Shown here piece after piece: positions 12,595-64,000 of a stretch of 64,000 bases of DNA (its first letter is position 1; every line of letters starts with the position of its first letter). The notes under the pieces were generated by a model. It saw only the letters and a list, made by a program, of their open reading frames with translations, was not told the DNA's origin and searched no databases. The stretch is from a virus: positions 17,969 to 81,968 of the IMG/VR virus record IMGVR_UViG_3300042876_000902; one strand, written 5' to 3'. Position numbers and translations under genes: made by a program.

Positions 12595-12632
12595 CGACGC
12601 CCGACCCGGAGAGCCTCCCGGGTCGGGCGTCG
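12595..12632. terminator. Hairpin between convergent late (+) and replication (-) units
   Basis: 15-bp perfect stem cgacgcccgacccgg/ccgggtcgggcgtcg. Confidence 0.7.
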
Positions 12633-12688
12633 CGTTACCAGCGGGTCCCCGTTCGTTTAACGGGGCCTCCCGCGAGGCCTCGGAAGGC

Positions 12689-13219
12689 CTAGTAGTCGAC
12701 CTTCGCGTGGGGGTGATACTCCCACTCCCGCCCGGCCTTCTCAGCCCAGAGGCGGTTGAAGATCTCCATGTGCTCCGGGACGTACTCCTCCATGAACACG
12801 ATGCGGCGGCAGCTGGTGTTCATCAGGAGCTTCGTGCATGTCGAGCACGGGGCGAGCGTCACGTAGCAGGTGCTGATCGCCTGGGCGTCCCGGCACTGGA
12901 GGAGGGCGTTCTGCTCGGCGTGGATCGCCTCGCACCCGACCCCGCCCGACTGCGGCTGCCCGAGGGGCGCGAGGGCCCCGGAGCATGCGTTACCGTGGTA
13001 CACGGTAGTCTGCACTGCCCGGTGGGCCCCTTCGGCGTTGTCGACACTGGTGACCTCGTTGCAGTGAGGCAACCCGCTCGCGACCCCGTTGTACCCGGTC
13101 GCGAGGACGTGCCCGTGCCGGTCGACGAGGACGCACCCGACGTGGCGCCGGAGGCAGGTCGAGCGGGTCGCCACGAGCTTCGCCATCGCGACGAAGTACG
13201 TGTCCTTGTCGGGCCTCAC
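12689..13219 (-). CDS. dCMP deaminase
   Basis: RSTCLRRHVGCVLV..TGYNG..HAEQNA..PCSTC; GTGA overlap. Confidence 0.9.
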   Translation of the reverse strand: MRPDKDTYFVAMAKLVATRSTCLRRHVGCVLVDRHGHVLATGYNGVASGLPHCNEVTSVDNAEGAHRAVQTTVYHGNACSGALAPLGQPQSGGVGCEAIHAEQNALLQCRDAQAISTCYVTLAPCSTCTKLLMNTSCRRIVFMEEYVPEHMEIFNRLWAEKAGREWEYHPHAKVDY

Positions 13220-14067
13220 GGGAGCGGCCTCCACTGACAGGTCTCGTCGGCCGTCCCCTCGCGGAGCGCCATGAGGTCCCGGCGCAGGGTCTCCCAGTCG
13301 CCCTTCCGCACGAGGGCGTCGGGCGTTGGCTCCGGGACCGGCCCGGGGTCCGACTCGAGCACCTCCTTCACCTTGTCGATGTCCTTCAGGTAGAGGTGGC
13401 TCGACGTCGCGTTGATGGTCATGGTCCCGAGGCCGACCGTCAGCTCGCGAGGGAGACCCCAGTTGTGCATGCACGCGACGAAGAGGGCGACCGTCGCGAA
13501 GCTGAACATGTCGTAGGGAAGCCCCATCCATCCGTCGCTCGACCGCATGAAGACGTGTAGGTGGAGCAGGTCCCGCCGGATCGAGAAGCTCATCGCGACC
13601 GTGCAGGGGATGTCCTTGCTCGGCAGCGGGTTCCGCTCCCAGATGGTGAGCACCGCCTGGCGGGTGTCCCGGTCCTTGCTGAGCTGCTGGACAACGTACG
13701 GGGTCTGCGCCCGGACCTTCGGGCCGTAGGCGCCGTTGAGGGTCACCCCGTCGTCGCTGAACCGCCCGTAGCTCGGCGCGAAGCGGGCGAGGGAGGCGAG
13801 GTCATTCTGGCCGTTCACGATCCACAGCGCCTCGGCGGCCATGAACTGCGCCGAGAGCTTCCGGGCCGGGGAGGTCACCACCGCCCGGCTCAGGTCGACG
13901 GACACGAGCTGGCCGTGGAGCATCTCGACGGTGTCGATCCCGCGCGGGGAAACCTTCTGCCCCTCCCGGCAGATGGCCATCATGGCCTCCCGCCAGGCGG
14001 CATCGCCGCACGGGGCCGGGGTCCCGGGCTGCGGAGTGTATGACTGGGCGAGCATAACGTCGGTCAT
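13216..14067 (-). CDS. Thymidylate-synthase-fold enzyme, probably a dCMP hydroxymethylase/methylase
   Basis: DIPCT (catalytic Cys), MRSSDGWMGLPYD (Asp at the canonical Asn), SHLY. Confidence 0.8.
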   Translation of the reverse strand: MTDVMLAQSYTPQPGTPAPCGDAAWREAMMAICREGQKVSPRGIDTVEMLHGQLVSVDLSRAVVTSPARKLSAQFMAAEALWIVNGQNDLASLARFAPSYGRFSDDGVTLNGAYGPKVRAQTPYVVQQLSKDRDTRQAVLTIWERNPLPSKDIPCTVAMSFSIRRDLLHLHVFMRSSDGWMGLPYDMFSFATVALFVACMHNWGLPRELTVGLGTMTINATSSHLYLKDIDKVKEVLESDPGPVPEPTPDALVRKGDWETLRRDLMALREGTADETCQWRPLP

Positions 14068-14591
14068 GAGTCGAACCTCCCTTCGGCGATGTGGATGGCG
14101 AAGGCGGGCGCCCCGCCCTCCCACTGGGTGCGGTCGTACTTGAGGACGGGGAGCGAGGTCTTCATTGCGGCGTACCCGTCCCACACGCGGCGGAGCTGGT
14201 CCGTCCGCTTGAGGTACTCCTCCTGCGGCCTGCCCTCGAACGACTTGGCGCAGACCTCGAACGGCGGGAGGCAGAGGACCACCACGCCGTCGCACGCTGC
14301 TGCGATGCCCTCGAGCCACCCCGCCGTGTTCGGGCTCAGCCGGTTCAGCCCGGCCCGCATCACGGCGCCGTAGATGGGCTCGGAGAGCCACGACCGGTCG
14401 AGCACCGTGTCGACGTACCCGTGGGTTGCGGGCATCATGCTCACCTCGTACACGTCGGCGAGGTCTTGAGGGGAGACCTTGAGGTAGGAGCCATGGTGGA
14501 TGAGCATCCCTTGGACGGCGCGGGTGAGCGCCTGGGCCAGCGTGGTCTTGCCCGAGCCGTCCGGGCCTTCGAGGATGAAGAGGCGGCTCAT
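14064..14591 (-). CDS. P-loop deoxynucleoside monophosphate kinase
   Basis: ILEGPDGSGKTT..DRSWLSEPIYG. Confidence 0.8.
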   Translation of the reverse strand: MSRLFILEGPDGSGKTTLAQALTRAVQGMLIHHGSYLKVSPQDLADVYEVSMMPATHGYVDTVLDRSWLSEPIYGAVMRAGLNRLSPNTAGWLEGIAAACDGVVVLCLPPFEVCAKSFEGRPQEEYLKRTDQLRRVWDGYAAMKTSLPVLKYDRTQWEGGAPAFAIHIAEGRFDS

Positions 14592-15076
14592 GGCGTCGCC
14601 TCCTTCGGCGCTCCGGCGTCGTCGCGCCGGTTGACGTACGTGCTCCGGTCGAGCCCCTCGGCATGGAGGTGAACCAGGTGGCTCGGCGGCGACCACCCCG
14701 GCGGCTTGATGAGGTCGACCGCGTGCCCGCGGTGCCCGACGCCGCGGATCTTGGACATGTTCGCCCGGTCGACCTCGGCCCACGAGCGGCGCCAGACCCG
14801 GCGGAGGCCGAGCATCACGGCCGTGCCTTTGAGGAAGACGCCGATGTCGATGAGCGCGTCCGTCATCCCCGCGATGTCGTCGCTCTCGACCGCGTCCTCC
14901 AGCTCGTCCACCTCCTCGCGGAGGCACTGCAGCCGCTCGCGCATCTTCCGCTTCGTGAGGAAGCCCGGCTCCTCGAACGAGAGGATGCCGAACTTGAGGT
15001 GCATCGCGCGGACGTCTTCCAGCTCCGGGTCGAGCCCGCGCAGGACGCGGATCGCATTCCACAGTCTCTTGAACAT
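14588..15076 (-). CDS. MazG-like (PRA-PH/DR2231-type) dNTP pyrophosphatase
   Basis: EEVDEL..DALID..V..ANMSK..KPPGW.PP. Confidence 0.85.
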   Translation of the reverse strand: MFKRLWNAIRVLRGLDPELEDVRAMHLKFGILSFEEPGFLTKRKMRERLQCLREEVDELEDAVESDDIAGMTDALIDIGVFLKGTAVMLGLRRVWRRSWAEVDRANMSKIRGVGHRGHAVDLIKPPGWSPPSHLVHLHAEGLDRSTYVNRRDDAGAPKEATP

Positions 15077-25713: not shown

Positions 25714-26319
25714 TCAGCCCGCCTTCCGCATCAGCTTCTCCGTCACCTCCGACGTCGTGAGCGCCTTCGCCACCACCCCGCGGAGGACGCTCCCCCTCCC
25801 GAGCGCGGCGCGGAGGTCGCGCACGTTGCGCTTGCCGTACGCGGCGACCATGCTCGGGCCCCACGCGCCACCCGACGGCTCGCCGGTGGGCAGGCAGAAC
25901 TCGAAGCGCCCCCGCTGGAACAGCACCTCGTCCGCGGTTTCCATCAGCAGCTGGGCCCAGGCGGTGTCCATCGACTTCGCGGGGACTAGCATGAACCCGT
26001 CGCCGTGCTCGGCCAGGAGCTGCACCCACGGGAGGACCCGCGAGTAGGGCGGGTTCACCCACTTCCGCCCGCGCTTCCACAGGCTCGGGTCGAGCCCGTC
26101 GCCCAGCGTCACGCCGCCCGCCACCTTGAGCTTGCGCGGCTCGCCGTCGACGACCGTCACGCCGTTCGAGATCATCCGCTTCGCGGTACGCCACGGCATG
26201 CGCGGGTAGCAGCACGGGTCGAGGTCGAACGGCCCGAGGTCGTCGACCACGGGCTTGGGTGTGAGCCAGTCGTCGGTGGCCGACTTCGAGTCGGGCCGGT
26301 TCCGGTTGTCCTTGTTCAC
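25714..26319 (-). CDS. Phage DNA N6-adenine methyltransferase
   Basis: DDWLTP..PFDLDPC..WVNPPYS. Confidence 0.85.
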   Translation of the reverse strand: MNKDNRNRPDSKSATDDWLTPKPVVDDLGPFDLDPCCYPRMPWRTAKRMISNGVTVVDGEPRKLKVAGGVTLGDGLDPSLWKRGRKWVNPPYSRVLPWVQLLAEHGDGFMLVPAKSMDTAWAQLLMETADEVLFQRGRFEFCLPTGEPSGGAWGPSMVAAYGKRNVRDLRAALGRGSVLRGVVAKALTTSEVTEKLMRKAG

Positions 26320-26813: not shown

Positions 26814-26846
26814 AAAAGAGCCCCGCGGGCCGGGGCCCCGGGGCTC
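26814..26846 (-). terminator. Intrinsic terminator
   Basis: gagccccgg..gcggggctc-ttttt on the minus strand. Confidence 0.65.
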
Positions 26847-26847
26847 G

Positions 26848-27064
26848 CCTGATCGGGTTCCCTCCTTCGGGGGAGGTCTGGGAGGACCCGGGGGGAACGG
26901 GCGGATCCGGGGGACGAGCCCCGCCCGGCGGACCCGCGGGAAGGGCCCTAGGCGCCCCGCCCGCGGGCGATCGGCCGGAGGGGCGGGGTACCCTACCGCC
27001 CCGCCCCTCCGGCGCTCCGGAGCGGCTCCGGTAGCGTCCCGATCAGGCTCCCCCGAAGGAGGGG
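26848..27064. repeat. Very GC-rich intergenic element with two interleaved inverted repeats and a 36-bp copy shared with 63271-63306
   Basis: cctgatcggg 26848/27038rc; ctccttcgggggag 26862/27048rc; 26939-26974 matches 63271-63306 at 34/36. Confidence 0.75.
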
Positions 27065-27103
27065 GAGGCGCCCGGGAGCCCGGAATCGCACAACGGCGGA
27101 CGT

Positions 27104-42399: not shown

Positions 42400-43230
42400 C
42401 GCCCGCGACGTATTAGAAGGATCGCGCGATCTATGGATCGCGCGCGCGCGAGACGTCGTCGGACACCCCGAGCCACAACCGCCCGTGGTCGCATCCAGGC
42501 ACCGTCATCGGTGTGGGTCGGGGTGTCCGACGGCGGGGCGAGTCGTTGTCACTCGCCCTTCACCGTCACCGCTTCCAAGGTCACCTTTCGGTTTCCACGC
42601 TCGGCCTCACGTTGACGAGGACTGGGGTCGCACCCGGTGAAGTTCCCGGATCCCAGTGTCGTTAGGGAGGAGTCTCACTCTCCTCCACCGCAACGCTCAG
42701 CTACCGCGCTCCTTGGCCATCGACTTCAGGGACGTCCTCTCACGTTCCGCCGGGACCGACCCGGCCGCCCTCGCGCGTTCCTTTCTTCTCCCGCCCGCCC
42801 GACCGTGTACGTAAGGGCATCGCCGCTGTGGGCTTGACGCTCGGTCGCTCGTGAGTGGGGTGAAGAGGGGCGTGCCTGGTGGGCACGCCGCGCTCGTCGA
42901 AGGACACGTTCTCGCTCGTGCCCGCGCCCCGTGTCGTGGGGAGACGCCGCAGTCCGCGGTATGGCGCCGTACGCTCCGGCGTTCGCCACCCGGCCCCACA
43001 AGCTGGGGTCCACCGGTGGCTATCTCGGGGTTAGTGGCTCGGCGGACGGGAGGGCACTCCATTTCGCGCTCTCTCCCGGGTCCGCAGCGGATGTCTTTCG
43101 CCTCGCACTCGGACCGTACTAGCCACACAGGCTTAAGGTCCCTTCGCATTCCGCACTAGGTGCGGTGAGGTTACTCGGCCGCTTCGCGGTCGCCCCGACC
43201 GGCCCCCCGACCTATCCCGGGACCGGCGAT
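42400..43230 (-). ncRNA. Candidate large structured ncRNA or early leader
   Basis: No convincing ORF; at least 8 hairpins including a 14-bp perfect stem; GNRA loops on the minus strand; promoter-like element upstream. Confidence 0.5.
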
Positions 43231-43233
43231 CCG

Positions 43234-43333
43234 ACTCTAGCGGGATCGTGAGTACACCGGTCAAGTCTTTTTCAGGTTCCCTCGAAGGTACTGCCTCCTT
43301 CGGGGGAGGCGGGCGAGCGCTCCCCCGAAGGAG
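43234..43333 (-). promoter_or_regulatory. Early promoter-like region with paired CTCCTTCGGGGGAG inverted sites
   Basis: A-tract then TTGACC..TAGAGT (19-bp spacer, atypical); 14-bp inverted repeat 43295-43308/43320-43333. Confidence 0.45.
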
Positions 43334-43356: not shown

Positions 43357-44160
43357 CTACGCGCGGCGGAGCACCCACGCGCAGTTGCTCGATGCCTGCG
43401 GGTACTTCGGCGCGAGGAAGTTGGCGAGCACCTCCCACGGATACCAGGTCAGCAGCTCCTCCACGAGCTTGCGCTCGTCGGGCGTCATCACCTTCTTCAT
43501 CGCGTTCGCGGTCATGAAGGTGCCGTGGACGCGCTCGACCCGGAGCCCGACCGACTCGATGTAGTATCGCAGCTCGTCGAAGCGGTACTCGTGGATGTGG
43601 TTCGCCGCCATGTGCTTCTCGTTGTAGACGGGCGTCGAGAGGAGCGCCGTGCCGTCCGGCTTCAGCACGCCGCGGATCCCCTGAAGCAGCTTGATGCCGT
43701 CGGTGACCCCCATGTGCTCGATCGCCTCGAAGCAGGTGACGAGGTCGAACGGTCCCGGCGCCCGCGCTGCGCGCTCGGTCCCGTCAGAGAGGAGCGGTTT
43801 CATCAGCTCCTTCCACCGGCTCGTGAAGTCGAACTCGTCAAACACTCGAGTCCACGCGATGCCCGGCTTCTTCGGGATGCGGTCGACGTCGACCCCGACG
43901 TACAGCTCGGGGACCGTCGTCAGCGTGTGGAGCAGCACCTTCGGCATCATGACGTCCGGGCCACAGCCGACGTCGAGGACCCGCATCCCCTGCCGGACGA
44001 AGCGGACCGCGTAACTCCACCGGAACCAGTGGGCGGCGTAGTCCCGGTGGACGTACTTCCCGTGCACCCCGCCCTCGCGGAGCGAGGTGGAGTCGAAGCG
44101 CCGCGCCTCACGCTTCGTCGACGGGTGAGGCTTCGGCGCTGGCCAGCTCTTCTTGCTCAT
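43357..44160 (-). CDS. Class I SAM-dependent methyltransferase
   Basis: H..RW..A..VLDVGCG..FDLVTCFEAIEH..LKPDG..LSTP. Confidence 0.85.
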   Translation of the reverse strand: MSKKSWPAPKPHPSTKREARRFDSTSLREGGVHGKYVHRDYAAHWFRWSYAVRFVRQGMRVLDVGCGPDVMMPKVLLHTLTTVPELYVGVDVDRIPKKPGIAWTRVFDEFDFTSRWKELMKPLLSDGTERAARAPGPFDLVTCFEAIEHMGVTDGIKLLQGIRGVLKPDGTALLSTPVYNEKHMAANHIHEYRFDELRYYIESVGLRVERVHGTFMTANAMKKVMTPDERKLVEELLTWYPWEVLANFLAPKYPQASSNCAWVLRRA

Positions 44161-44750
44161 CGGATCTCTCCCCACTGCTTGGCCATCGCCTTGGCGATGC
44201 CAGGGTACGTGCGGCTCCTCTGCTTCCACCGGTCCGGCGAGGGCGACGCCCACGACCCCGGGCAGGTGGACACCCCTGCGTAGTACGGCCTCTGGAAGCT
44301 CACCTCGACCACCCGGCTCGGCTTCAGGTGCGGGAGGTTCACGAGCCAGAGGCACGTCTTCTTCGTCTCGCCGTGCCCGTGCTGCCACGGCTGGATGACC
44401 TGGTCGGGTGGCCTCACCGCCTTGGAGAGGATGCCGACCGGGTTCTCGAGTGCGATGCGCGGCACCGGGGCGGCGAGCAGCTCCTCCACGAAGGCGATGG
44501 CCTCCTGCTGCTCGCCGCTCCGGCGCTTCGCCGCCCACCACCGCGCCCCGGACGCGGCGAGGTGGGTGCACGGAGGGAACGCGACCATCAGGTCCCACCG
44601 CCCGCGCTTCAGCTGCCGCCGGACGTCCCCGATGATGTGAGGCCCCGGCGCCTCGCTCGGGAGGAGGTCGCAGGAGACGGCCTCGTGCCCGCGGGCGATG
44701 AACGCGTCGCGGACGCGACCGGAGAATTCGCAGGCCACGAGGACGCGCAT
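44157..44750 (-). CDS. Compact phage C5-cytosine methyltransferase-like protein
   Basis: VLVACEFSG, FPPCT, ENPVG, RSRTYPGIA.AMA.QWG. Confidence 0.75.
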   Translation of the reverse strand: MRVLVACEFSGRVRDAFIARGHEAVSCDLLPSEAPGPHIIGDVRRQLKRGRWDLMVAFPPCTHLAASGARWWAAKRRSGEQQEAIAFVEELLAAPVPRIALENPVGILSKAVRPPDQVIQPWQHGHGETKKTCLWLVNLPHLKPSRVVEVSFQRPYYAGVSTCPGSWASPSPDRWKQRSRTYPGIAKAMAKQWGEIR

Positions 44751-45950
44751 CTAGGCCGCCGCGCCCACGTCGACGAGCATCGAGCGCGACGTCGGGCAGA
44801 GGTTGAGGACGTCCCCGTGGCTCACCTTGTGGGTGGCCTTGCGGACCTGGCCGGTGACGTTGCTCGAGAGCGTCTCGCAGACCCAGCGGGCGACCGCGGG
44901 GACCACGCCCTTCGAGAGGTACATCCGGAACTGCCCGTGGGTCGAGCCCGGCCACGCGTAGTCGTCGGGGAAGCCCATGATGCGGTTGTACTCCTCGCGG
45001 ACGAGCGGCCGGTCCGTCCCGCCGATGCTCCACCAGGCCCCGGCGAGGACCGTCGGTGCCATCCCCTCGGGGTCCATGATGCGCAGGACGTTGGTCACGT
45101 ACGGCGCCCGCTCGCAGAGGGCGCGGACGACGGCCGCGGGCGTGCCCTTCTCGAGCTTGATGCCGGTCTTCGACACCCCGCCGCCGATGCTGTCGAGCTT
45201 GCCGGTCCGCTTCAGCTCCTTGTTGATGATGGCGAGCATCGTCCCGTAGCCCTGCTCCCCGAGCATCGCGGCGTCGGCGAACTTCTTGCCGAACTGCGCC
45301 TTGAGCTTCGCCCGCTGACGCTCGAACGCCTCGACGTCGCGCTCGATCGGCGTGCCGCCCTTCTTCATCAGGATGCTGCCGACCGTCGCGAGCTGCGGAC
45401 GGTGGACGACGTGCAGCTCGCGGTTCGGGAGGACGCCCTTGCGGACGAACAGCGCCCAGAAGCGCTGGCGCCACTGCGGGTTGCCGAAGGTGACCGCGTT
45501 CTGCTGGATGCGGAAGAGGTCGTACCCGCGCGCCGCGAACTTGTCGTGGACCGAGCGTGCGCCCTCCAACGCCCCGGGGACCGACTCGACCGCGATGGCG
45601 AGTGCCTTGTTCCCCATCGCGTAGTTGAGCACGTTGATGGTGCAGGCGAAGGCGTCGGAGTCGAGGCCGACCTTGGTCTTGCCGTCGGCCGACTTCTGCC
45701 ACCGCGGCGTCATCAGCGAGAACGCTGAGCACGGCGGATGCGCCATGACGATGCTGTCGCTGAGGTCCAGCTTCTTCGGCCACTGGTCCCTGGTGTCGTG
45801 GTACGTGAGCTTCGGGAAGTTGGCCTTCTGGATGTTGATCCCGAAGGCACTGTCTTCCATCGAGGCGACGATCTCGTGCTTCGCCTGGGTGACGCCCTGC
45901 ACGATGCTGCCCGCGTAACTGTTGATGATGAGAACGCTCGGCTTGCCCAT
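44751..45950 (-). CDS. C5-cytosine DNA methyltransferase with divergent motifs
   Basis: SYAGS (I), HPPCSAFS (IV), ESV (VI), QWRQR (VIII), RE..R.MGFPDDY (IX), KGVVP (X). Confidence 0.8.
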   Translation of the reverse strand: MGKPSVLIINSYAGSIVQGVTQAKHEIVASMEDSAFGINIQKANFPKLTYHDTRDQWPKKLDLSDSIVMAHPPCSAFSLMTPRWQKSADGKTKVGLDSDAFACTINVLNYAMGNKALAIAVESVPGALEGARSVHDKFAARGYDLFRIQQNAVTFGNPQWRQRFWALFVRKGVLPNRELHVVHRPQLATVGSILMKKGGTPIERDVEAFERQRAKLKAQFGKKFADAAMLGEQGYGTMLAIINKELKRTGKLDSIGGGVSKTGIKLEKGTPAAVVRALCERAPYVTNVLRIMDPEGMAPTVLAGAWWSIGGTDRPLVREEYNRIMGFPDDYAWPGSTHGQFRMYLSKGVVPAVARWVCETLSSNVTGQVRKATHKVSHGDVLNLCPTSRSMLVDVGAAA

Positions 45951-52128: not shown

Positions 52129-54330
52129 TCAGAACTTCTTGGCACGCTTCTTCGGCGGCTCCTCCGGGGCGAACCCCTCCTTCCGCAGCTCATCCTCCAC
52201 GTGCTTCTGCACCCCGTCCCGCCCGGCGGCGTTCCACTTCTGGGCGTTCTTCACCCGGATGACGTAGCCCTTCCACGTCCGGCCGAAGACCTTGAGCGGC
52301 ACGGCGCTCGCCCGCGGGAACCTCATCTGCTGGAGGAGGACGCCCATCGCGTTCACCGTCACCGGCTCCTTCTTGCGAACGCGGTCGAAGAACGTGACGA
52401 CCTCCGACGAGGTGTAGATGTCCCTGGTCAGCGCGCCGTTCGCGCCCCAGAGCACGGAGTCGGGGTCCTCGCGGAGCGCGGCGAGGAACTGCGCGGCCTC
52501 GCTGCGGGTCGCGCCGATCATCTCCTCCTTGCTCTCGGTCATCGGGGCCCAGCCCGTCGGCTCGAAGGCGTCCAGGTTCACCTCGTGCCGGAAGTGCCAG
52601 AGCAGGTGGCTCGGCCCGCCGCCCGCGAGCCACTCGTAGTACCTCCGCCAGAACGGTCCGCACTCCCGGCAGCGGTCGACCTCTGCCTGCGTCATGTGGA
52701 AGTCGCGGCCGCAGATGGCCTTGAGGATCTGGTGGATGGCGAAGCGGCGGTCGCCCTCGTCGACGCGGAGGACGTTGGGGCGGTTGGACGTCTCGTAGAA
52801 GTTGGCGTGGTCAGGGAGCGGATACTGCGGGACGTGCTTGACGTTGCACTGCAGGAACTCCTCCGTGATGAGCTTCTTCAGGATGTCGACCTTCCGCTGG
52901 GCATCGGACCCGGTCATGTCATCGATCATCACGAACTGCTTGCCGATGGCCCACCAGTTGAAGTCCGATTCGAGGTCGTTCTGGTTGATCTCGCTGTAGT
53001 TGTTCCCGTAGATGAGCCCGAGGGTCTTCCCGATCACCGACTTCCCGACGCCCTGCCCGTGCGACCAGATGCAGAGCGAGGTGTTCAGCTTCCCGGCCTC
53101 CGGGTGGGCGATGGGCCAGGCAAACCACTTCTCTCCCCACCTCCGCATCTCGGGCGACCCGTCGAAGACCCGGTCGAGGAGGTCCGTCCACGGGCCCACG
53201 TCGCCCTTCTCCTCCTCGACGCCCCAGCCGCCCCACGTGTTGTAGCAGTCGCCGACGATCCTCGGCTGCCCCGGCGCGTAGGTCGCGAAGGAGTGCTCGC
53301 GGCGCATCGGCCAGTCCGCCCACTCGAACGCCACCTTGACGTCCTGCAGCTTCGGCCGCCCGTCCTCCTCCACGCTGACGATCTTCTTCGCCCACACGTT
53401 CGAGTAGTGGACGTTCTTGAAGTCGGAGAGGGCCATCTGCGGCGTGTTCCTCCACCGCTTCTGGGTCGGGTCGTGCAGCTCCTCGACCGCCCGCTCGTCG
53501 ATGACGAAGCCGGGGTGCTTGATCATCACGAAGCGCGAGTTGAACTCCCACAGCTTCCGGGCGAGGTCGTCGGGCACGGCGTCGTCGAGCAGCCGCTGGA
53601 ACTCCTCGTCACCCTCGGCCACGAGGAAGTCGTCGAGCCCCGTCTTCTCCACGTCGGGGAGGTCGGGGAGGTTCACGACGGCGGTGGTCGCGCCCTCCTG
53701 CGTGATGGTGTTCGTGAAGCGTACCATCGCCCGCATGACGGCGGGCTTCCGGGCGGCGTCGGCGTCGAAGACCAGGTACACCTGACGCCCGAGCCACTTC
53801 ATCTCCTTCAGCTCGGGGAGGAGCGCCCAGCCCCGCTTGCTGCTCGAGAAGCTGTCCACTCCGGGGAGGGCGAAGCAAGCGTGCCCGCGCTTGGCGGCGC
53901 AGGCACTCTTCAGCTCACCCTCTGTCACGACGATGGGGACGCTCGTGTCCTTCGCCACCTTCTCCCAGTTCACGAGGCGCGGGAAGTAGGCCGCGGGCGG
54001 GCACCCGACCGGCCGGATGTACCGCTTCTGCCCGTCCTTGCTCAGGTCGGCGAACCCCTCCACCGGGTACTCGCCCAGGAGCCGCACGCAGCAGACCCCG
54101 CGGCGCGGCTCGCCCGCGAGGTTGTGGTACTGGATCTTCAGGCCCGGCATGTCGGGCACGCCCTTGTTCTTCGCGAGGACCAGCTTCACCTCCTTGATCG
54201 TCAGCACCTCGATGCCGAGGAGCTTCGCGTCCTTCGTGTCGAGGCCCGAGCTTGCCAGCTTCGCAGCCGCGAGCGCGCCGGGCGTTCCCTTCCCCTCCCG
54301 CTGCTTCGCCACCTTGCCCTCCTCGCTCAT
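52129..54330 (-). CDS. Primase (TOPRIM, DUF3854-like)-SF3 helicase (DUF5906-like)
   Basis: VTEGELK, FDAD, KTGLDDFL; GQGVGKS; TSN..DRRF. Confidence 0.9.
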   Translation of the reverse strand: MSEEGKVAKQREGKGTPGALAAAKLASSGLDTKDAKLLGIEVLTIKEVKLVLAKNKGVPDMPGLKIQYHNLAGEPRRGVCCVRLLGEYPVEGFADLSKDGQKRYIRPVGCPPAAYFPRLVNWEKVAKDTSVPIVVTEGELKSACAAKRGHACFALPGVDSFSSSKRGWALLPELKEMKWLGRQVYLVFDADAARKPAVMRAMVRFTNTITQEGATTAVVNLPDLPDVEKTGLDDFLVAEGDEEFQRLLDDAVPDDLARKLWEFNSRFVMIKHPGFVIDERAVEELHDPTQKRWRNTPQMALSDFKNVHYSNVWAKKIVSVEEDGRPKLQDVKVAFEWADWPMRREHSFATYAPGQPRIVGDCYNTWGGWGVEEEKGDVGPWTDLLDRVFDGSPEMRRWGEKWFAWPIAHPEAGKLNTSLCIWSHGQGVGKSVIGKTLGLIYGNNYSEINQNDLESDFNWWAIGKQFVMIDDMTGSDAQRKVDILKKLITEEFLQCNVKHVPQYPLPDHANFYETSNRPNVLRVDEGDRRFAIHQILKAICGRDFHMTQAEVDRCRECGPFWRRYYEWLAGGGPSHLLWHFRHEVNLDAFEPTGWAPMTESKEEMIGATRSEAAQFLAALREDPDSVLWGANGALTRDIYTSSEVVTFFDRVRKKEPVTVNAMGVLLQQMRFPRASAVPLKVFGRTWKGYVIRVKNAQKWNAAGRDGVQKHVEDELRKEGFAPEEPPKKRAKKF

Positions 54331-55040
54331 CTCCGCTCCCCGACCTGCCGCCCGTCCACGATGACCCGCTCGATGCGCTCCTTCAGCCTCTTCTCGACCT
54401 GTCTCACCCGCTCGCGGGACACGCCGTGATCCTTCCCGATCTCCGCCAGCGACAGTGGCGCGTCGCTCAGGAGCCGCCGCGCCACGATGTCAAGCTCGAG
54501 CGCGCTGTGCGCCGAGATGTTCGACGCCCACACCACCTCGCCGCGCCGCTCCAGCGCCTCGGCCGCCTCCAGCGGCGACGGGCCGCCGTCCTCGATGATC
54601 TCGAAGCGCGACAGCTCGACCCCGTCCTCGGTCACCGTGTTCGGGACCAGCGACAGGTTGGCCAGCTTCATCCGGTCGACCGACCCGCCGAAGGGGAGCC
54701 GGTGCCGCGTCACCGCCATCGCGACGTAGGCCCGGATCCAGTTCTGCGCGTACGACGCGAACCGCACACCGCGCCCCGCGTCGAAGCGGTCCGCCGCGAC
54801 GCACAGACCAAGCACGCCCTCGTGGGCGAGGTCCGCCACCCGGATGCCCGGCGTCCTCGCGTACGGCTTGAGGACGAAGATGACGAGGCGCAGGTTGTGC
54901 TCGATGAGGAGCTTCCGCGCCCATCGGTCCCCGGCCGCCACCCGGCGGGCCAGCTCGACCTCCTCCTCTTTGCTCAGCACGTGCCTCGACGCCGCCATCT
55001 TGGCGAAGCGCTTGAAGCTCGGGTCGTCCCAGACGTTCAT
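54327..55040 (-). CDS. sigma70-family (RpoH/RpoD-like) sigma factor
   Basis: LSKEEE..L, HNLRLV, DL.HEG..GL..A..RFD..RG.RF.SYA..WIR, GVSRERVRQVE. Confidence 0.9.
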   Translation of the reverse strand: MNVWDDPSFKRFAKMAASRHVLSKEEEVELARRVAAGDRWARKLLIEHNLRLVIFVLKPYARTPGIRVADLAHEGVLGLCVAADRFDAGRGVRFASYAQNWIRAYVAMAVTRHRLPFGGSVDRMKLANLSLVPNTVTEDGVELSRFEIIEDGGPSPLEAAEALERRGEVVWASNISAHSALELDIVARRLLSDAPLSLAEIGKDHGVSRERVRQVEKRLKERIERVIVDGRQVGERR

Positions 55041-55870: not shown

Positions 55871-56076
55871 TTCGCCGCCTTCCTTTCTTTGACCAGCTGC
55901 TGAACCTCTCCCCTCACCTTCTCGACCACCGCCTCGACGCAGGTCTGACAAGTGTCCCCGAGCGGGAGCCACAGCTCATCCTGCCCGGAGTCGTCGCAGT
56001 AGACTCTGACGGTGTACTGCTCCATGTGCTCCTTCTCCGCGCCGCAGACGTCGCAGACCGTGATCGTCTTCTTCAT
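55867..56076 (-). CDS. Small Cys-rich hypothetical protein
   Basis: CDVCG..CQTC; coupled overlaps. Confidence 0.5.
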   Translation of the reverse strand: MKKTITVCDVCGAEKEHMEQYTVRVYCDDSGQDELWLPLGDTCQTCVEAVVEKVRGEVQQLVKERKAAK

Positions 56077-57074
56077 GACTTCAACCATTCTGGGTGATCG
56101 AGGGACCACTTCACCACACGCTCGAGGCTCTGCTCGAAGGAGACGGGCGGCGCCCACCCCAGTGCCGCGAGCTTCGAGCCGTCGAGCGCGTACCGCAGGT
56201 CATGGCCGGGGCGCTGCGAGTGGAAGTCTGTCATCACGTGGCGCAGCGGCTTGCCCACGAACCCGGCGATGAGCTGGGCGAGCCGCAGGTTGTCGCACTC
56301 CTCCTCCCCGACGATGTTGAACTTGTCCCCGACCCTTCCGTGCTGGAGGATGAACATGACGGCGTGAGCGACGTTCCGGGCGTGGATGTAGAAGCGGCTC
56401 CCCGCCTTGGTCAGGTCCGCGTTCGCGTGGACGACGACGAGCTGCCCGTCGCGGACCCGGCGGATGGTCCCGGGGACGAACTTCTCCGGGTGCTGCCGCT
56501 CGCCGATGACGTTCATGCAGTGGGTGATGAGCACCGGCAGCCCGTACGTGTTGTGGTACGCGAGGCACAGCTCCTCGGCCCCCGCCTTCGTGGCGCTGTA
56601 CGGGTTGCCCGAGCGGTAGCGGTCCCACTCCTTGTAGGCGACGCCCTCGGGCGCCGGGCCGAACACCTCGTCCGTGGAGAAGTAGACGAAGCGCACCGGA
56701 TCGTGCCACCGTGCGTACTCGAGCAGGTTGGCCGTCGCGACTACGTTGTCGTACACGAACGAGAGCGGGTCGCTGATGGAGCGGTCGACGTGGGTCGCCG
56801 CCGCCAGGTGGAAGACGTAGTCCACCGGCCCGATCTGCTGAGCGAGCTGGGGCGAGACCGGTGCCTTGAGGTCGTGCCACACCCAGCGGCAGCGGTGACG
56901 GTGTCCGTCCCAGCCTGCGATCTCGGCGATGCGGTTGAGGTTCCCCGAGAGGTCGAGCCGGTCGAGGAAGACGATGCTCCAGTCCGTGTTGCGGAGCACG
57001 TGCTCCGCGACGTGATGCCCGATGAACCCCGCCCCGCCCGTGAGCAGGACGACCTTGCTGCCTCTCTTCTTCAT
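56073..57074 (-). CDS. rmlB: dTDP-glucose 4,6-dehydratase-like NDP-sugar dehydratase
   Basis: TGGAGFIG, HLAA.THVDRSI, STDEVFG, YSATK, RPGHDLRYA. Confidence 0.9.
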   Translation of the reverse strand: MKKRGSKVVLLTGGAGFIGHHVAEHVLRNTDWSIVFLDRLDLSGNLNRIAEIAGWDGHRHRCRWVWHDLKAPVSPQLAQQIGPVDYVFHLAAATHVDRSISDPLSFVYDNVVATANLLEYARWHDPVRFVYFSTDEVFGPAPEGVAYKEWDRYRSGNPYSATKAGAEELCLAYHNTYGLPVLITHCMNVIGERQHPEKFVPGTIRRVRDGQLVVVHANADLTKAGSRFYIHARNVAHAVMFILQHGRVGDKFNIVGEEECDNLRLAQLIAGFVGKPLRHVMTDFHSQRPGHDLRYALDGSKLAALGWAPPVSFEQSLERVVKWSLDHPEWLKS

Positions 57075-61435: not shown

Positions 61436-61825
61436 ATGCCTTTCCAAGCGAAGAGGCCGTGTGCCACGCCAGGTTGTCCTGAGCGTGTGAGCAAGGGACA
61501 TTGCGAATTGCACGCGAAGAAGCGCAGGGATGAGGCTGAGGCCAGGAGGCCGAGCGCGAGCGCCAGACTGTACGGGTCTGAGTGGCGGAAGGCTGCGCGT
61601 GAGTTCCTCGAGATCAACAGGTGGTGCGTAGGGGAGGGGATCGTCGTTGATGGTGTGAAGACAGCTCGCTGCGGTGCTCGAGCGACAGTCGTCGATCACA
61701 TCCAGCCGCACAAGGGAGATCTCACGCTGTTCTGGGACAGGAGCAACTGGCAGCCGCTGTGCAAGAGATGCCATGACAGGAAGACGGCTCGCGAGGATGG
61801 GCGCTGGGAGCCGAAGGTGTACTGA
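61436..61825 (+). CDS. HNH endonuclease (terminase-associated type)
   Basis: MP..AKRPC..PGC..YG.EW..VDHIQPHKGD..FWD..NWQPLCKRCHDRKT. Confidence 0.9.
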   Translation: MPFQAKRPCATPGCPERVSKGHCELHAKKRRDEAEARRPSASARLYGSEWRKAAREFLEINRWCVGEGIVVDGVKTARCGARATVVDHIQPHKGDLTLFWDRSNWQPLCKRCHDRKTAREDGRWEPKVY

Positions 61826-62368
61826 GGCCAGGCGGTGATCGGGTGATGATCGGAGCTGGGCTTGCGAAGGCCCGGCTCTTTCATTTTGTGAAATCACAAA
61901 TTTTAAAAATTTTTTGACGTGGTTGAAGTGCATTTCCTGAATTGGATTTCATTTCAAAACGAGAGCCTCATAGGCGACTGTGCAAAAAATGGAGGCTTGT
62001 GTTTTCGATGTGTACTTGTGTTGACGCGGTGCGTCGATGCGATCGGGTAGGTCAGCCTGGACCCACCCCATTGACACTGCCCTGTGCAGGACACCCCGAA
62101 TGAGGTGCAGTGCTTGTGGGGTGCGCGACGGTGTCGCACCGCCAAAGAGGTGCGCAGCTTGTGAGTGACCCGAAGGCACTGGGTCGCCTGGACCCCACTG
62201 CACAAGCATAACACCTCACAAGAGGTGCCCACAACATCTAGTGCGCACCGGTGCGCACCTCCTGGCGGGGCACCTCCAAGGTAGTGCTGCGTGCACCTCC
62301 GAAGGGGCAAAGCGGCTCGACACCCCACAAGCACTAGTCCGTTCAACGCATTTCGCGGGGTTAGCGGC

Positions 62369-62384
62369 TGGCACGGCAATCGCA
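62369..62384 (+). promoter_or_regulatory. sigma54-type -24/-12 promoter
   Basis: TGGCACG-gcaa-TCGCA versus consensus TGGCACG-N4-TTGC. Confidence 0.55.
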
Positions 62385-62441
62385 AAGAGTTTCGCTCGTT
62401 CCCCGCCGGATAGGCCGGAGGGGACGAAACCGGAGCGTACG

Positions 62442-62543
62442 ATGTCCCCGACCGAAGGTATCGCGATGATCTCTAGCCTCCTCGGAATCCTCCCGATCGT
62501 CATCGGTCTCGGCCTCGCCGCTCTTCTCGCTACGACCCGGTAA
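62442..62543 (+). CDS. Tiny membrane peptide (start 62442 or 62466)
   Basis: MISSLLGILPIVIGLGLAALLATTR. Confidence 0.45.
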   Translation: MSPTEGIAMISSLLGILPIVIGLGLAALLATTR

Positions 62544-62564
62544 CGGGCTAGCCCCGGAGGTAGT

Positions 62565-62834
62565 ATGTCGAAGTCCTCGAAGTCGTCGAAGTCCTCGAAG
62601 CGCCCCGCCGCGAAGTCCGCCCCGAAGTCGGACGGCCTCGGCCGCCCCGGGACCGTCGCCCGGTTCTTCCGCGAGACGATTCTCGCGAAGCCCGGCCGGG
62701 AGAACGCGGAGATCGTCGCCCTCGCGAAGCGGAAGTTCCCGAAGGCCGGGATCGCCTCGCACTGGGCGTCGTGGTACCGCGCGGAGATCGTCCGGAAGGG
62801 CGCGGCGTCGCACCGCGCGGCCTACGGGGCCTAG
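62565..62834 (+). CDS. WYR-domain HTH-like protein
   Basis: GGAGG RBS; TVARFFRETI..NAEI..FPKAGI..WASWYR. Confidence 0.7.
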   Translation: MSKSSKSSKSSKRPAAKSAPKSDGLGRPGTVARFFRETILAKPGRENAEIVALAKRKFPKAGIASHWASWYRAEIVRKGAASHRAAYGA

Positions 62835-62857
62835 CGCACCTCGAAGGTAGTACACCG

Positions 62858-62891
62858 GGCCGGGGCGCGGTACGGCCCCGGCCTTTCTCTT
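62858..62891 (+). terminator. Intrinsic terminator
   Basis: ggccggggc..gccccggcc-tttctctt. Confidence 0.65.
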
Positions 62892-62912
62892 ACCCCGAAG
62901 GGAGTGCGGAAG

Positions 62913-63086
62913 ATGACCACCTCGAAGGTAGTGCGGAAAGAGACGAAGAGAGAATGGGCCCGGCGGATCGCCGCTCTCCGGGAGGCTTACCGGGCGATCG
63001 ACGCGGCGCGGGAGGCCCTAGACGCCGCGGAAGAGGCGATCGAGCGGATCGACGACGCGGACGCGGGTCTTCCGCCCCGCCGGTAG
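62913..63086 (+). CDS. Small helical hypothetical protein
   Basis: ATG after GGGAG; followed by a terminator. Confidence 0.5.
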   Translation: MTTSKVVRKETKREWARRIAALREAYRAIDAAREALDAAEEAIERIDDADAGLPPRR

Positions 63087-63112
63087 ATCACCCCCAACGC
63101 GGCACTACACGG

Positions 63113-63198
63113 AAGGGCCCCGGACGACCGGGGCCCTTTTTCGTTGACCCGAAGGTATTGTGCGAACCCCCTCGAATGCTACGTTCGAGGGGGTTTTC
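63113..63198 (+). terminator. Two tandem intrinsic terminators
   Basis: gggccccgg-acga-ccggggccc-ttttt and aaccccctcgaa..ttcgagggggtt-tt. Confidence 0.7.
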
Positions 63199-63400
63199 GC
63201 GTTCTAGGGCCCTAGCGCGAGCGCCGCGCGATCGGGAGGAGCGGGGCGCTAGGGGTCTAGCGGCTCGGTCCCGATCGCCCGCGGGCGGGGCCGCTAGGGC
63301 CCTTCCGCGCGACGTTCGCGGGAGGGATCGGGCGCCCCTTCCGCCGATCGCGAGCGCTCGCGAGCGCTAGAAGGTAGCGAGTGTGCGGGTTCCCTCGATC

Positions 63401-63515
63401 GTAGTGTCCTACACTACCTAGTGGGTGTGCCGCCAGGGCTCACCCCGTCGGTAGTGTCCTACACTACGTTCGCGGTGCTCACCCCGTTGGTAGTGTCCTA
63501 CACTACGTTCGCGGT
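63401..63515. repeat. 39-bp tandem repeat x2 plus a partial copy, containing the palindrome GTAGTGT-cct-ACACTAC (x3)
   Basis: 63438-63476 and 63477-63515 differ at one base; palindrome also at 63401. Confidence 0.85.
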
Positions 63516-64000
63516 ACGCGACGTTGCGCACCCCGTTGGCGGTGCCGCCCCGTCGGACACTACGAACGGGGCGGGTCATCGTGCGGACCCCGGGTCGTGC
63601 TAACCCGGTCATTTTATTGAAGTGTCCCGATCGGGTCGTGTAGGTCGTGCGCGACCCCGGGTCGATGCGCCCGACCCACCTCGTGCGAGGTGCCGTGCAC
63701 TACCTTCGAGGTGGGCACGCCTCCACCCCGTCGGAGGTGCGCAAGAGTGCGCAGACCTGCTCAGGTCCGCAGTACACAAAGGGTGGGTCCGCCAGGCCTC
63801 ACCTGGTCTGTGCAGTACACAAGTGCGACACCTCCAAAGAGGTGTGAACACAAACCGCACAACATTGGCACAGCACCTCTTTCGCGGCAGCCAGGTCGCG
63901 GCACCTCACAAGAGGTGTAGAACAACTCCACACCCCAGGTGTACCGCCCTGTGCAGGGTGGGTGGGGTACACCTCACTTTGTGAACACTTCACGTGAGAC

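What the first reader, a model, noticed from the sequence alone, without database searches (positions are those of the whole stretch)
62400..63400. CA/TG-free islands: possible footprint of a context-specific DNA modification
Seen: by-eye count gives ~25 CA+TG in this 1 kb versus ~100 expected at this composition. Runs with none occur at about 62568-62759, 62957-63087 and 63179-63381. The genes use CTC/CTA/GTC and G-ending codons before AAG instead of CTG/GTG, and the usually rare CTAG is abundant. Most remaining CA/TG fall in ATG, Trp/His codons or the palindromic operator. The flanks (62050-62340, 63650-64000) are CA/TG-enriched. Smaller depleted islands lie at module junctions: 26881-27043, 43169-43248 and ~12595-12690. 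Both strands are affected, so the selection acts on DNA rather than RNA. Inference: virion DNA carries a bulky modification at CpA (or TpG), and the segments host RNA polymerase must read first are kept modification-free by sequence design. An alternative is selection on DNA stiffness, since CA/TG steps are flexible.
Basis: partly seen in the sequence, partly recalled or inferred. Interest (0 to 1): 0.88.

Follow-up and report, generated by a model that had tools for sequence, protein, structure and literature searches.

The report
CA/TG-free gene cassette at phage end
A 1-kb cassette of three tiny genes and a folded non-coding element, 0.6 kb from one end of an 82-kb soil-phage genome, has been cleared of the DNA step CA/TG by natural selection. 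The cause is unknown; my best guess is that this is the step at which the phage's chemically altered DNA is marked or recognised.

Summary
Window 62383-63382 holds 24 CA+TG, against 106±8 in composition-preserving shuffles. Three runs of 133-204 bp have none. No other dinucleotide class shows this.

In the three genes the purge is synonymous as well as at protein level. Resampling codons gives 37.7 expected against 12 seen. C|A codon junctions are 2 of 39, against 45% genome-wide. CTG is used for 0 of 13 Leu. There is no Gln or Cys.

The flanks are the CA/TG-richest windows of the genome. Of the "smaller islands" only 26880-27043 exceeds chance. It is a paralogue of the non-coding part of the main island.

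- Selection on the CA:TG step is shown. Its agent is not.
- The TS-like gene is a cytosine-type hydroxymethylase in a cluster shared with phage AXL3, whose DNA appears altered at G/C sites throughout. That predicts a global mark, not a CpA-specific one.
- Three relatives with the cluster have no island.
- The glycosyltransferases lie in the tail module.
- No thymine dioxygenase or ParB was found.

TG-specific thymine marks are published for other phages. This scan has already found the same kind of island in at least six other phage genomes. I re-checked it in E. coli phage ECML-117.

Verdict: a genuine, unexplained, recurring anomaly.

The parts
62383..63382 (.). CA/TG-depleted island: 24 CA+TG in 1000 bp. 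Odds are CA 0.20, TG 0.25, TA 1.27 and CG 1.38.
62369..62384 (+). Sigma-54-like -24/-12 element (one mismatch to TGGCACG-N4-TTGCW), pointing into the island. The last CA of the left flank lies in its -12 part. A lead only.
   Evidence: 0.48 such matches expected per window by chance. No phage-encoded activator.
62442..62543 (+). Gene for a 33-aa hydrophobic (membrane-type) peptide. 3 CA/TG against 9.5 expected from its codons.
   Evidence: no Pfam or PHROG hit
62565..62834 (+). Gene for an 89-aa protein with a disordered Lys/Ser-rich tail and a three-helix domain carrying the WYR motif. It holds only the five obligatory CA/TG.
62857..62884 (+). Terminator-like hairpin with a T-rich tail behind the 89-aa gene
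62913..63086 (+). Gene for a 57-aa acidic, Ala/Arg/Glu-rich protein. An in-frame GTG lies at 62904 and another at 62931. Its 5' end overlaps a palindrome copy.
   Evidence: no family hit
63113..63138 (+). GC-rich hairpin followed by TTTTT, terminator-like, behind the 57-aa gene
   Evidence: self-complementary 26-mer
63160..63400 (+). Structured non-coding element behind the motif TTGTGCGA. It contains the 204-bp CA/TG-free run.
   Evidence: MFE -153.9 kcal/mol, z -5.3; paralogue of the element at 27 kb.
26815..27095 (-). Internal paralogue of the non-coding element, between two minus-strand terminators and behind TTGTGCGA. It has 3 CA/TG in about 270 nt, with none in 26880-27043.
   Evidence: (36-nt core, 94%)
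62050..62340 (.). Left flank: array of CACCTC-N4-GAGGTG-type palindromes, 196 CA/TG per kb
63401..63506 (.). Three copies of a 17-bp inverted repeat (7-bp arms, 3-bp spacer), operator-like, just right of the island
63650..64000 (.). Right flank: a second palindrome array running to the genome end, 182 CA/TG per kb
   Evidence: Contigs from two runs end at 64000.
61436..61825 (+). HNH endonuclease gene left of the arrays, of the kind that accompanies terminases of cos phages. Not CA/TG-depleted.

Best explanation
Shown: the island is a self-contained cassette of a 33-aa membrane peptide, an 89-aa Lys-tailed three-helix protein, a 57-aa acidic protein and a folded non-coding element. It has its own terminators and is bracketed by arrays of a 16-bp palindrome. 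It lies 0.6-1.6 kb from the right genome end. Purifying selection keeps its transcribed stretches free of the duplex step CA:TG.

Inferred: this is the step at which the phage's altered DNA is either marked or read. Two forms are possible. (a) A post-replicative, context-specific mark is placed on T of TG or on C of CA, as published for Pbunavirus and for the dioxygenase 5mYOX176. (b) All cytosines are replaced, as the gene content predicts, and a modification-dependent reader such as a host nuclease recognises the altered C only in front of A.

It can be transcribed, or survive, while it is alone in the cell, before its products act. The internal paralogous element would be kept unmarked for the same reason, for example because it must fold or be bound.

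For: Selection on the step itself:
- Depletion is four- to five-fold against shuffles.
- Synonymous and junction choices avoid CA/TG, and one gene is at its obligatory minimum.
- The usual replacements CTG>CTC and NNC|A>NNG|A are transversions. A deaminase-type mutation bias would not produce them.
- In-genome paralogues read HWPQWYRADM where the island copy and its two outside homologues read HWASWYRAEI. Gln and Met have been removed.
- Once the ban is modelled, no further k-mer is clearly avoided.

Investment in DNA alteration:
- A cytosine-type hydroxymethylase sits with a dCMP deaminase, a P-loop kinase and a MazG-like enzyme.
- There are a C5-methylase, a PHROG-757 DNA methylase, a further SAM methylase and a Dam-like enzyme.
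- The DNA of the related phage AXL3 resists 35 of 37 restriction enzymes (PMC7504290).

Precedent for dinucleotide-context marks:
- Hypermodified T in a TG motif in Pbunavirus F8 and 14-1 (PMC12191111).
- 5mYOX176 prefers NTG (PMC13229309).

Position:
- The terminase genes are at the left end. By the lambda/HK97 rule the right end is then packaged last and ejected first (established knowledge, applied here by analogy).
- An independent assembly also ends at window base 64000.

Contrast and recurrence:
- The flanks and operators are the CA/TG-richest DNA of the genome.
- The same signature (CA/TG about 0.4, TA and CG raised) is in E. coli phage ECML-117. Its head genes are homologous to those of TG-marked Pbunavirus 14-1.
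Against: - No gene for a known TG- or CA-specific marking enzyme was found: no Tet/JBP, no ParB_N. The hydroxymethylase is not of the dUMP type.
- The predicted mark is global on C. Form (b) therefore needs an unknown reader.
- AXL3, PW916 and MW202621 share the cluster but have no island.
- Pbunavirus 14-1, with a published TG mark, has no island.
- The neighbouring leftward early genes are not depleted.
- The internal island is not near an end, so 'first to enter' cannot be the whole story.
- A C5-methylase is hard to reconcile with complete cytosine replacement.
- No close relative's DNA could be fetched, so conservation of the purge is shown only at protein level.
Confidence: 0.33

Rival explanations
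1. Avoidance of a nuclease that cuts ordinary DNA at sites as short as the CA:TG step. One candidate is a phage pre-early enzyme that destroys host DNA while only this end of the phage genome is in the cell, in the style of T5 first-step transfer. Another is a host defence nuclease.
For: - The position near the putative first-entering end, with palindrome arrays that recall the T5 injection-stop region.
- The early-injected region decides sensitivity to restriction in T7-like phages (PMC12455610, abstract only).
- The purge is complete wherever coding allows.
Against: - A host enzyme of such low specificity would need about a tenth of all host positions protected.
- The cassette encodes no nuclease.
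- The phage's predicted global C replacement would already protect all its DNA.
- The T5 first-step region is itself not depleted.
- The internal island is not explained.
- Common palindromic sites (GATC, CTAG, TCGA, CGCG, CCGG, GGCC) are abundant in the island.
Confidence: 0.17
2. Selection acts on the RNA. The cassette's mRNAs and the two non-coding RNAs must lack CA and UG, for instance to resist an endoribonuclease, or to carry no NUG start codon in any frame.
For: - The purged stretches coincide with putative transcripts. They start behind promoter-like elements (62369-62384; TTGTGCGA at 63158 and 27093) and stop at terminators. The short spacers between a terminator and the next TTGTGCGA have normal or high CA/TG density.
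- All canonical start codons contain TG (established knowledge).
Against: - Two unrelated dinucleotides would have to be banned independently in RNA, whereas in duplex DNA they are one step.
- CA on the sense strand is depleted at least as strongly as TG. Start-codon avoidance does not explain that.
- No RNase is known to me that cuts CA and UG but spares UA and CG, which are both enriched here.
- The transcripts are not mapped.
Confidence: 0.15
3. Selection on DNA mechanics or protein occupancy. CA:TG is a flexible, kinkable step, so DNA without it would be stiffer and would exclude proteins that need it. These could be nucleoid proteins or the palindrome-binding protein, whose sites all contain CA/TG.
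For:
- The palindromes and operators are rich in CA/TG and the island between them has none. This would confine a CACC/GGTG-reading protein to the flanks.
Against: - TA, the most flexible step, rises three-fold in the island, and CG also rises.
- A ban on one 6-bp half-site does not need every CA/TG removed, down to the codon junctions.
Confidence: 0.07
4. No selection at all: a local mutational process or a recent transfer from a donor with this composition.
For: TA and CG, the transition products of CA/TG, are enriched.
Against: - The enrichment follows arithmetically from the ban.
- The main synonymous replacements are transversions.
- The CA/TG that remain are exactly those that function requires.
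- The 89-aa gene has three paralogues in the same genome, and codon usage is otherwise that of the genome.
- The edges are sharp and the flanks are enriched.
Confidence: 0.04

Closest known systems
CA/TG-depleted gene block of Wifcevirus (E. coli phage ECML-117, JX128258, about 6.7-8.3 kb). Known from earlier reports of this scan; I found no paper on it.
   Same: - Both CA and TG are depleted on one strand.
- TA and CG are raised (0.41/0.40/1.21/2.05 there; 0.20/0.25/1.27/1.38 here).
- The block holds a few small genes and has sharp edges.
   Different: - The phages are unrelated. Only an SNF2 helicase and ThyX are shared.
- The host is low-GC.
- The purge is weaker there.
- Here there is also a purged non-coding element with an internal paralogue, and the flanks are CA/TG-enriched palindrome arrays.
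Context-specific thymidine hypermodification: the TG motif in Pbunavirus F8 and 14-1 (PMC12191111), and the ParB-dependent T-dioxygenase 5mYOX176 with NTG preference (PMC13229309)
   Same: It is a published agent that reads exactly this dinucleotide on phage DNA, on both strands of each CA:TG step.
   Different: - No dioxygenase, no ParB and no dUMP-type hydroxymethylase here.
- 14-1 itself has no CA/TG-free island.
- No chemistry is known for this phage.
First-step-transfer (pre-early) region of phage T5, with its injection stop signal
   Same: Small genes sit at the end that enters first, next to a region of repeats and palindromes. In T5 this DNA is exposed alone before the rest of the genome enters.
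   Different: - T5's region is a 10-kb terminal repeat and is not CA/TG-depleted (odds 0.96/0.90).
- There is no terminal repeat here.
- Two-step entry is not shown for this phage.
T4-type complete cytosine replacement, and the restriction-resistant DNA of Stenotrophomonas phage AXL3
   Same: - An Asp-type ThyA-fold hydroxymethylase with dCMP deaminase, a kinase and a MazG-like enzyme.
- The replication module is syntenic with AXL3, at 42-49% identity.
   Different: This explains a global mark, not a dinucleotide purge. AXL3 and two other relatives lack the island.

Membership tests
CA/TG-depleted early-gene island of phages (a kind defined by this scan) | CA and TG both strongly depleted on the same strand over about 1-2 kb, beyond codon and composition expectation | tested here: met
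CA/TG-depleted early-gene island of phages (a kind defined by this scan) | Compensating rise of TA and CG, and loss of Gln/Cys/His/Met/Trp from the proteins | tested here: met
   no Gln and no Cys in 179 residues. His, Met and Trp occur only where conserved or at starts.
CA/TG-depleted early-gene island of phages (a kind defined by this scan) | Lies close to a physical genome end or in a terminal repeat | tested here: inconclusive
   The island is 0.6 kb from the record's end, and contigs from two runs end at the same base. There is no terminal repeat. The physical ends have not been determined experimentally.
CA/TG-depleted early-gene island of phages (a kind defined by this scan) | Early expression from its own strong promoters | not testable with these tools
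   No RNA run is listed. There is no sigma-70 consensus promoter. Only promoter-like motifs were found.
TG-context thymidine hypermodification system | Thymine dioxygenase (Tet/JBP fold) or dUMP hydroxymethylase (Asn type) as the source of 5-hmU | tested here: not met
   No PF12851 match. The ThyA-fold enzyme has Asp where SPO1 gp29 and SP10 have Asn.
TG-context thymidine hypermodification system | ParB-like activator (for the 5mYOX176 subclass) | tested here: not met
   No PF02195 match.
TG-context thymidine hypermodification system | Modified thymidine found in a TG context in virion DNA | not testable with these tools
   Only assembled contigs of four metagenomes are available.
Complete cytosine replacement (T4 gp42-type pathway) | ThyA-fold enzyme with Asp at the base-specifying position | tested here: met
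Complete cytosine replacement (T4 gp42-type pathway) | Accompanying dNTP pyrophosphatase and dNMP kinase | tested here: met
   PRA-PH/MazG-like at 14588-15076 and a P-loop kinase at 14064-14591. Their substrates are untested.
Complete cytosine replacement (T4 gp42-type pathway) | Modified cytosine in virion DNA | not testable with these tools
   Indirect only: AXL3 DNA resists 35 of 37 enzymes (PMC7504290).
T5-type first-step-transfer region | Located in a long direct terminal repeat | tested here: not met
T5-type first-step-transfer region | Two-step DNA entry with an injection stop signal | not testable with these tools
   Palindrome arrays flank the cassette. This is a resemblance only.
Ordinary restriction-site avoidance | Loss of specific 4-6-bp, mostly palindromic, sites | tested here: not met
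   GATC, CTAG, TCGA, CGCG, CCGG and GGCC are at or above the genome density in the island. Nothing beyond the dinucleotide is avoided.

The most novel reading that the evidence does not exclude
Phages of unrelated lineages keep particular transcription units free of the single duplex step CA:TG. They do so because a still unidentified factor reads that step on DNA during infection. The factor could be a family of dinucleotide-context base marks, or a defence that recognises them. The purged cassettes would then be a cis-encoded blind spot: a new, sequence-level form of self-protection. It could be used to predict from sequence alone which phages carry such marks.
Probability: 0.3. Interest if true: 0.9.

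Novelty: new variant of a known kind. Interest (0 to 1): 0.74.

Why it matters
Removing one dinucleotide from 1 kb, at the cost of amino acids and of preferred codons, requires a strong agent that reads a two-base step. No published agent accounts for it in this phage.

If the agent is a context-specific DNA mark or its reader, such islands would flag modified phage genomes from sequence alone. They would also point to the genes a phage needs before anything else, which are candidate anti-defence factors. Two long-standing questions would become testable: how first-entering phage DNA survives, and how hosts recognise hypermodified DNA.

This instance adds several things to the earlier ones:
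- a high-GC soil phage with predicted global cytosine replacement;
- a purged non-coding element with an internal paralogue;
- in-genome protein paralogues that serve as a built-in control.

Tried and rejected
Searches for relatives that found nothing usable:
- Island DNA against the phage collection, near and distant modes.
- The 89-aa protein by tblastn.
- IMG/VR, JGI metagenomes and GTDB genomes. These gave one spurious low-complexity hit, L031.
- The 15-mer palindrome in IMG/VR gave 19 chance matches. The CA/TG-poor stretch in L007 is a tandem peptide repeat.

Conservation of the purge in relatives therefore remains untested at DNA level.

Public runs. Four rhizosphere metagenomes hold the phage with identical sequence, so there is no polymorphism to test. 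All are contigs, so neither depth nor miscalls could be read for marks. No RNA holder is listed.

Other negative results:
- Rfam: nothing at gathering score, and only terminator-like sub-threshold hits at E<=1. No tRNA.
- Fold search of the 89-aa model: no match at E<=0.001. Weak rows are three-helix DNA-binding domains.
- No sigma-70 consensus promoter in 61800-64000.
- No strand-specific CA or TG loss in the other 132 predicted genes.
- The apparent TG-poor and CA-poor windows of Pbunavirus 14-1 are base skew in a non-coding region, not a purge.

Ideas considered and rejected:
- PAM avoidance, Chi sites, primase sites, pause sites and phosphorothioate motifs. Each explains only a subset of CA/TG-containing words, or predicts loss of CG too.
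Full report
SETTING. The window is bases 17969-81968 of a single 81,968-bp virus record. CheckV rates it 100% complete, and it is linear without end repeats. GC is 67%.

My frame-plot gene call gives 135 genes:
- terminase, head and tail genes on the + strand up to window 12571;
- a long minus-strand arm of replication and nucleotide-metabolism genes, 12689-60346;
- a 2-kb gap with an HNH gene at 61436-61825;
- the cassette in question and then the genome end.

The same phage, without a single difference in the laid pieces, occurs in four rhizosphere metagenomes. In the second run a contig also stops exactly at window base 64000. There is no terminal repeat. The terminase genes lie at the other end. 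I therefore read 64000 as a cos-type physical end. By the lambda/HK97 rule it would be packaged last and ejected first. That is established knowledge applied by analogy, not shown here.

CA+TG is 25 in 62400-63400. It is 24 in 62383-63382, against 106.4±8.0 in composition-preserving shuffles.

The four longest CA/TG-free runs of the genome are 205, 194, 165 and 134 bp. The next is 83 bp, and about 82 bp is expected as the longest by chance. Three of the four lie in the island. No other dinucleotide class behaves like this.

Resampling synonymous codons from the genome's own usage gives 9.5, 18.0 and 10.2 CA/TG for the three genes, against 3, 5 and 4 seen. The 89-aa gene has exactly its obligatory five.

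Codon junctions show the same. C|A occurs in 2 of 39 cases, against 45% genome-wide. T|G occurs in 0 of 70. CTG encodes none of 13 Leu. The proteins contain no Gln and no Cys in 179 residues.

The CA/TG that remain are start codons, Met, Trp and His codons, copies of the palindrome, and the short spacers behind terminators.

TA is three-fold and CG 1.2-fold above the genome's odds, and 10 of the 41 genomic CTAG lie here. This follows arithmetically from the ban: T may no longer be followed by G, nor C by A. Once the island's own dinucleotide frequencies are modelled, no other word is clearly avoided. CTAG, GGTA and CTTC/GAAG remain somewhat over-represented.

The flanks at 62050-62340 and 63650-64000 have 196 and 182 CA/TG per kb. 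They contain the richest 300-bp windows of the genome.

- The small "islands" at 43167-43248 and 12640-12707 are no longer than chance allows genome-wide.
- Depletion "on both strands" is automatic for a pair of reverse complements. What matters is that CA and TG are both missing from the sense strand.

ANATOMY. From left to right:
- An array of CACCTC-N4-GAGGTG-type palindromes.
- A sigma-54-like -24/-12 element at 62369-62384, whose -12 part holds the last CA before the island. It has one mismatch, and 0.48 such matches are expected per window. It is a lead, not a finding, and the phage encodes no activator.
- The 33-aa hydrophobic peptide gene.
- The 89-aa gene, a palindrome copy and a terminator.
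- The 57-aa acidic protein gene, whose 5' end overlaps another palindrome copy, and a terminator-like hairpin.
- The motif TTGTGCGA and a short hairpin.
- A 204-bp CA/TG-free, very stably folding non-coding stretch (z -5.3).
- Three copies of a 17-bp inverted repeat, another terminator, the second palindrome array, and the end.

The non-coding stretch has a paralogue inside the minus-strand arm at 27095-26815. The two share a core of about 75 nt, including 36 nt at 94% identity. The core has the same orientation relative to TTGTGCGA, at 113 and 119 nt from it. The internal copy is framed by two minus-strand terminators. This is the only other significant CA/TG-free run, 26880-27043. Neither copy matches an Rfam family.

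In both places the purged stretch begins behind the promoter-like element and ends near a terminator. The spacers between a terminator and the next TTGTGCGA have normal or high CA/TG density.

The 89-aa protein is modelled as a disordered Lys/Ser tail plus a three-helix domain (pLDDT about 90 in the core). It has no significant fold match and no family hit. It has three paralogues in this genome. These are not CA/TG-depleted, and they read HWPQWYRADM where the island copy and its two only outside homologues (64-68% identity) read HWASWYRAEI. Gln and Met have been replaced. This internal control shows that the purge belongs to the place, not to the protein family. It also argues against a foreign origin.

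WHAT THE PHAGE DOES TO ITS DNA. The TS-like protein (13216-14067) is closest to the CMP hydroxymethylase MilA among solved structures. It has Asp at the position where thymidylate synthases and the dUMP hydroxymethylases of SPO1 and SP10 have Asn. By established enzymology this residue sets cytosine against uracil specificity.

The enzyme sits with a dCMP deaminase, a P-loop kinase and a MazG-like pyrophosphatase. The phage makes dTMP separately with ThyX and a thymidylate kinase.

The same cluster, and a syntenic replication module at 34-49% protein identity, occur in Stenotrophomonas phage AXL3, Pseudoxanthomonas phage PW916 and the uncultured phage MW202621. AXL3 DNA was cut by only two of 37 restriction enzymes, the two whose sites contain only A and T (PMC7504290). 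The likely mark is therefore a replacement of all cytosines, not a CpA-specific one.

The phage also encodes a C5-methylase, a PHROG-757 DNA methylase, another SAM methylase and a Dam-like enzyme. Their specificities are unknown. A C5-methylase fits poorly with full cytosine replacement.

I take them to act on virion proteins (inference). There is no Tet/JBP dioxygenase and no ParB.

TESTS OF THE INTERPRETATION.
AXL3, PW916 and MW202621 have no CA/TG-free island. Their longest runs are 107, 88 and 59 bp, and the first lies in a Glu-rich gene.
- Dinucleotide-context marks do exist. Pbunavirus F8 and 14-1 carry hypermodified thymine in a TG motif (PMC12191111), and the phage dioxygenase 5mYOX176 prefers NTG (PMC13229309).
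- 14-1 itself shows no comparable island. Its TG-poor and CA-poor windows are base skew in a non-coding region.
- E. coli phage ECML-117 was named in earlier reports of this scan. Its terminase and head genes are 50-73% identical to those of 14-1. It does have a block with the same signature at about 6.7-8.3 kb: CA 0.41, TG 0.40, TA 1.21, CG 2.05. It shares only an SNF2 helicase and ThyX with the present phage.
- The T5 first-step-transfer region, the usual analogue for first-entering DNA, is not depleted.

READING. Purifying selection on the CA:TG step in defined transcription units is as good as shown. A mutational origin is unlikely. The dominant synonymous replacements are transversions, and the surviving CA/TG are exactly the functionally required ones.

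The agent is not identified.

Lower odds go to the rivals:
- avoidance of a low-specificity nuclease, 0.17;
- an RNA-level cause, 0.15. The match between purged stretches and putative transcripts favours it. The need for two independent bans, and the equal loss of CA, argue against it;
- DNA mechanics or exclusion of the palindrome-binding protein, 0.07;
- no selection, 0.04.

The remainder is for something not yet thought of. The internal paralogue shows that "first DNA in" cannot be the whole explanation.

STANDING. This scan has reported the same kind of island in at least six other phage genomes. A later check there priced the "dodges its own mark" reading at about a quarter, which is close to my own estimate. 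I found no paper describing the phenomenon. I file it as a new variant of motif avoidance in early-exposed phage DNA, with an unknown agent.

Noticed in passing
window 63160-63400 (+) and 27095-26815 (-): Two paralogous, very GC-rich, strongly folding non-coding elements. Each lies behind the motif TTGTGCGA, which itself follows a terminator. They share a 36-nt core at 94% identity and match no Rfam family. They may be small RNAs or cis-acting RNA/DNA elements. Two copies downstream of promoter-like sites recall the put antitermination RNAs of HK022, but that is only a resemblance recalled from memory.
   Followed up: partly
window 62092-62290 and 63441-63926, with copies at 62837 and 62918: About 15 copies of a 16-bp palindrome (CACCTC-N4-GAGGTG and the variant ...GGTAGTG) bracket the cassette. 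Two copies lie inside it. They may be operator, enhancer or packaging sites. The binding protein is unknown.
   Followed up: partly
window 62369-62384: A near-consensus sigma-54 -24/-12 element sits exactly at the left edge of the island and points into it. If real, the host has sigma-54, so it is not an actinobacterium, and the upstream palindromes could be activator sites. A single match, with 0.48 expected by chance per window.
   Followed up: partly
window 43357-45950 (-): Three adjacent methyltransferase genes: a SAM-MTase, a PHROG-757 DNA MTase and a C5-cytosine MTase. There is also a Dam-like gene at 25714-26319. A C5-MTase is odd in a phage that appears to replace cytosine altogether.
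   Followed up: no
window 54327-55040 (-): A phage-encoded sigma-70-family factor with regions 1.2, 2 and 4. Its promoters were not identified. GAAGGTA-type motifs at 43284 and 52125 may be related.
   Followed up: no
window 1160-4551 (+), 56073-57074 (-): GT2+methyltransferase and GT17+methyltransferase+GT2 fusion proteins in the tail module, and an RmlB/GDP-mannose-dehydratase-like gene far away. This looks like a virion glycosylation system rather than a DNA glycosylation system.
   Followed up: partly
locus L028/L029 (Pseudomonas phage 14-1) 58934-59896: An unannotated 1-kb gap. Its first half is G/T-rich and its second half C/A-rich on the same strand, a sharp switch of strand composition. 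It lies next to the genes whose ECML-117 homologues adjoin that phage's CA/TG-poor block.
   Followed up: no
whole genome, + strand: A genome-wide asymmetry: CA odds are 1.00 and TG odds 0.88 on the + strand, whatever the direction of the genes. Late + strand genes are therefore CA-rich on their coding strand, and minus-strand genes are CA-poor.
   Followed up: no
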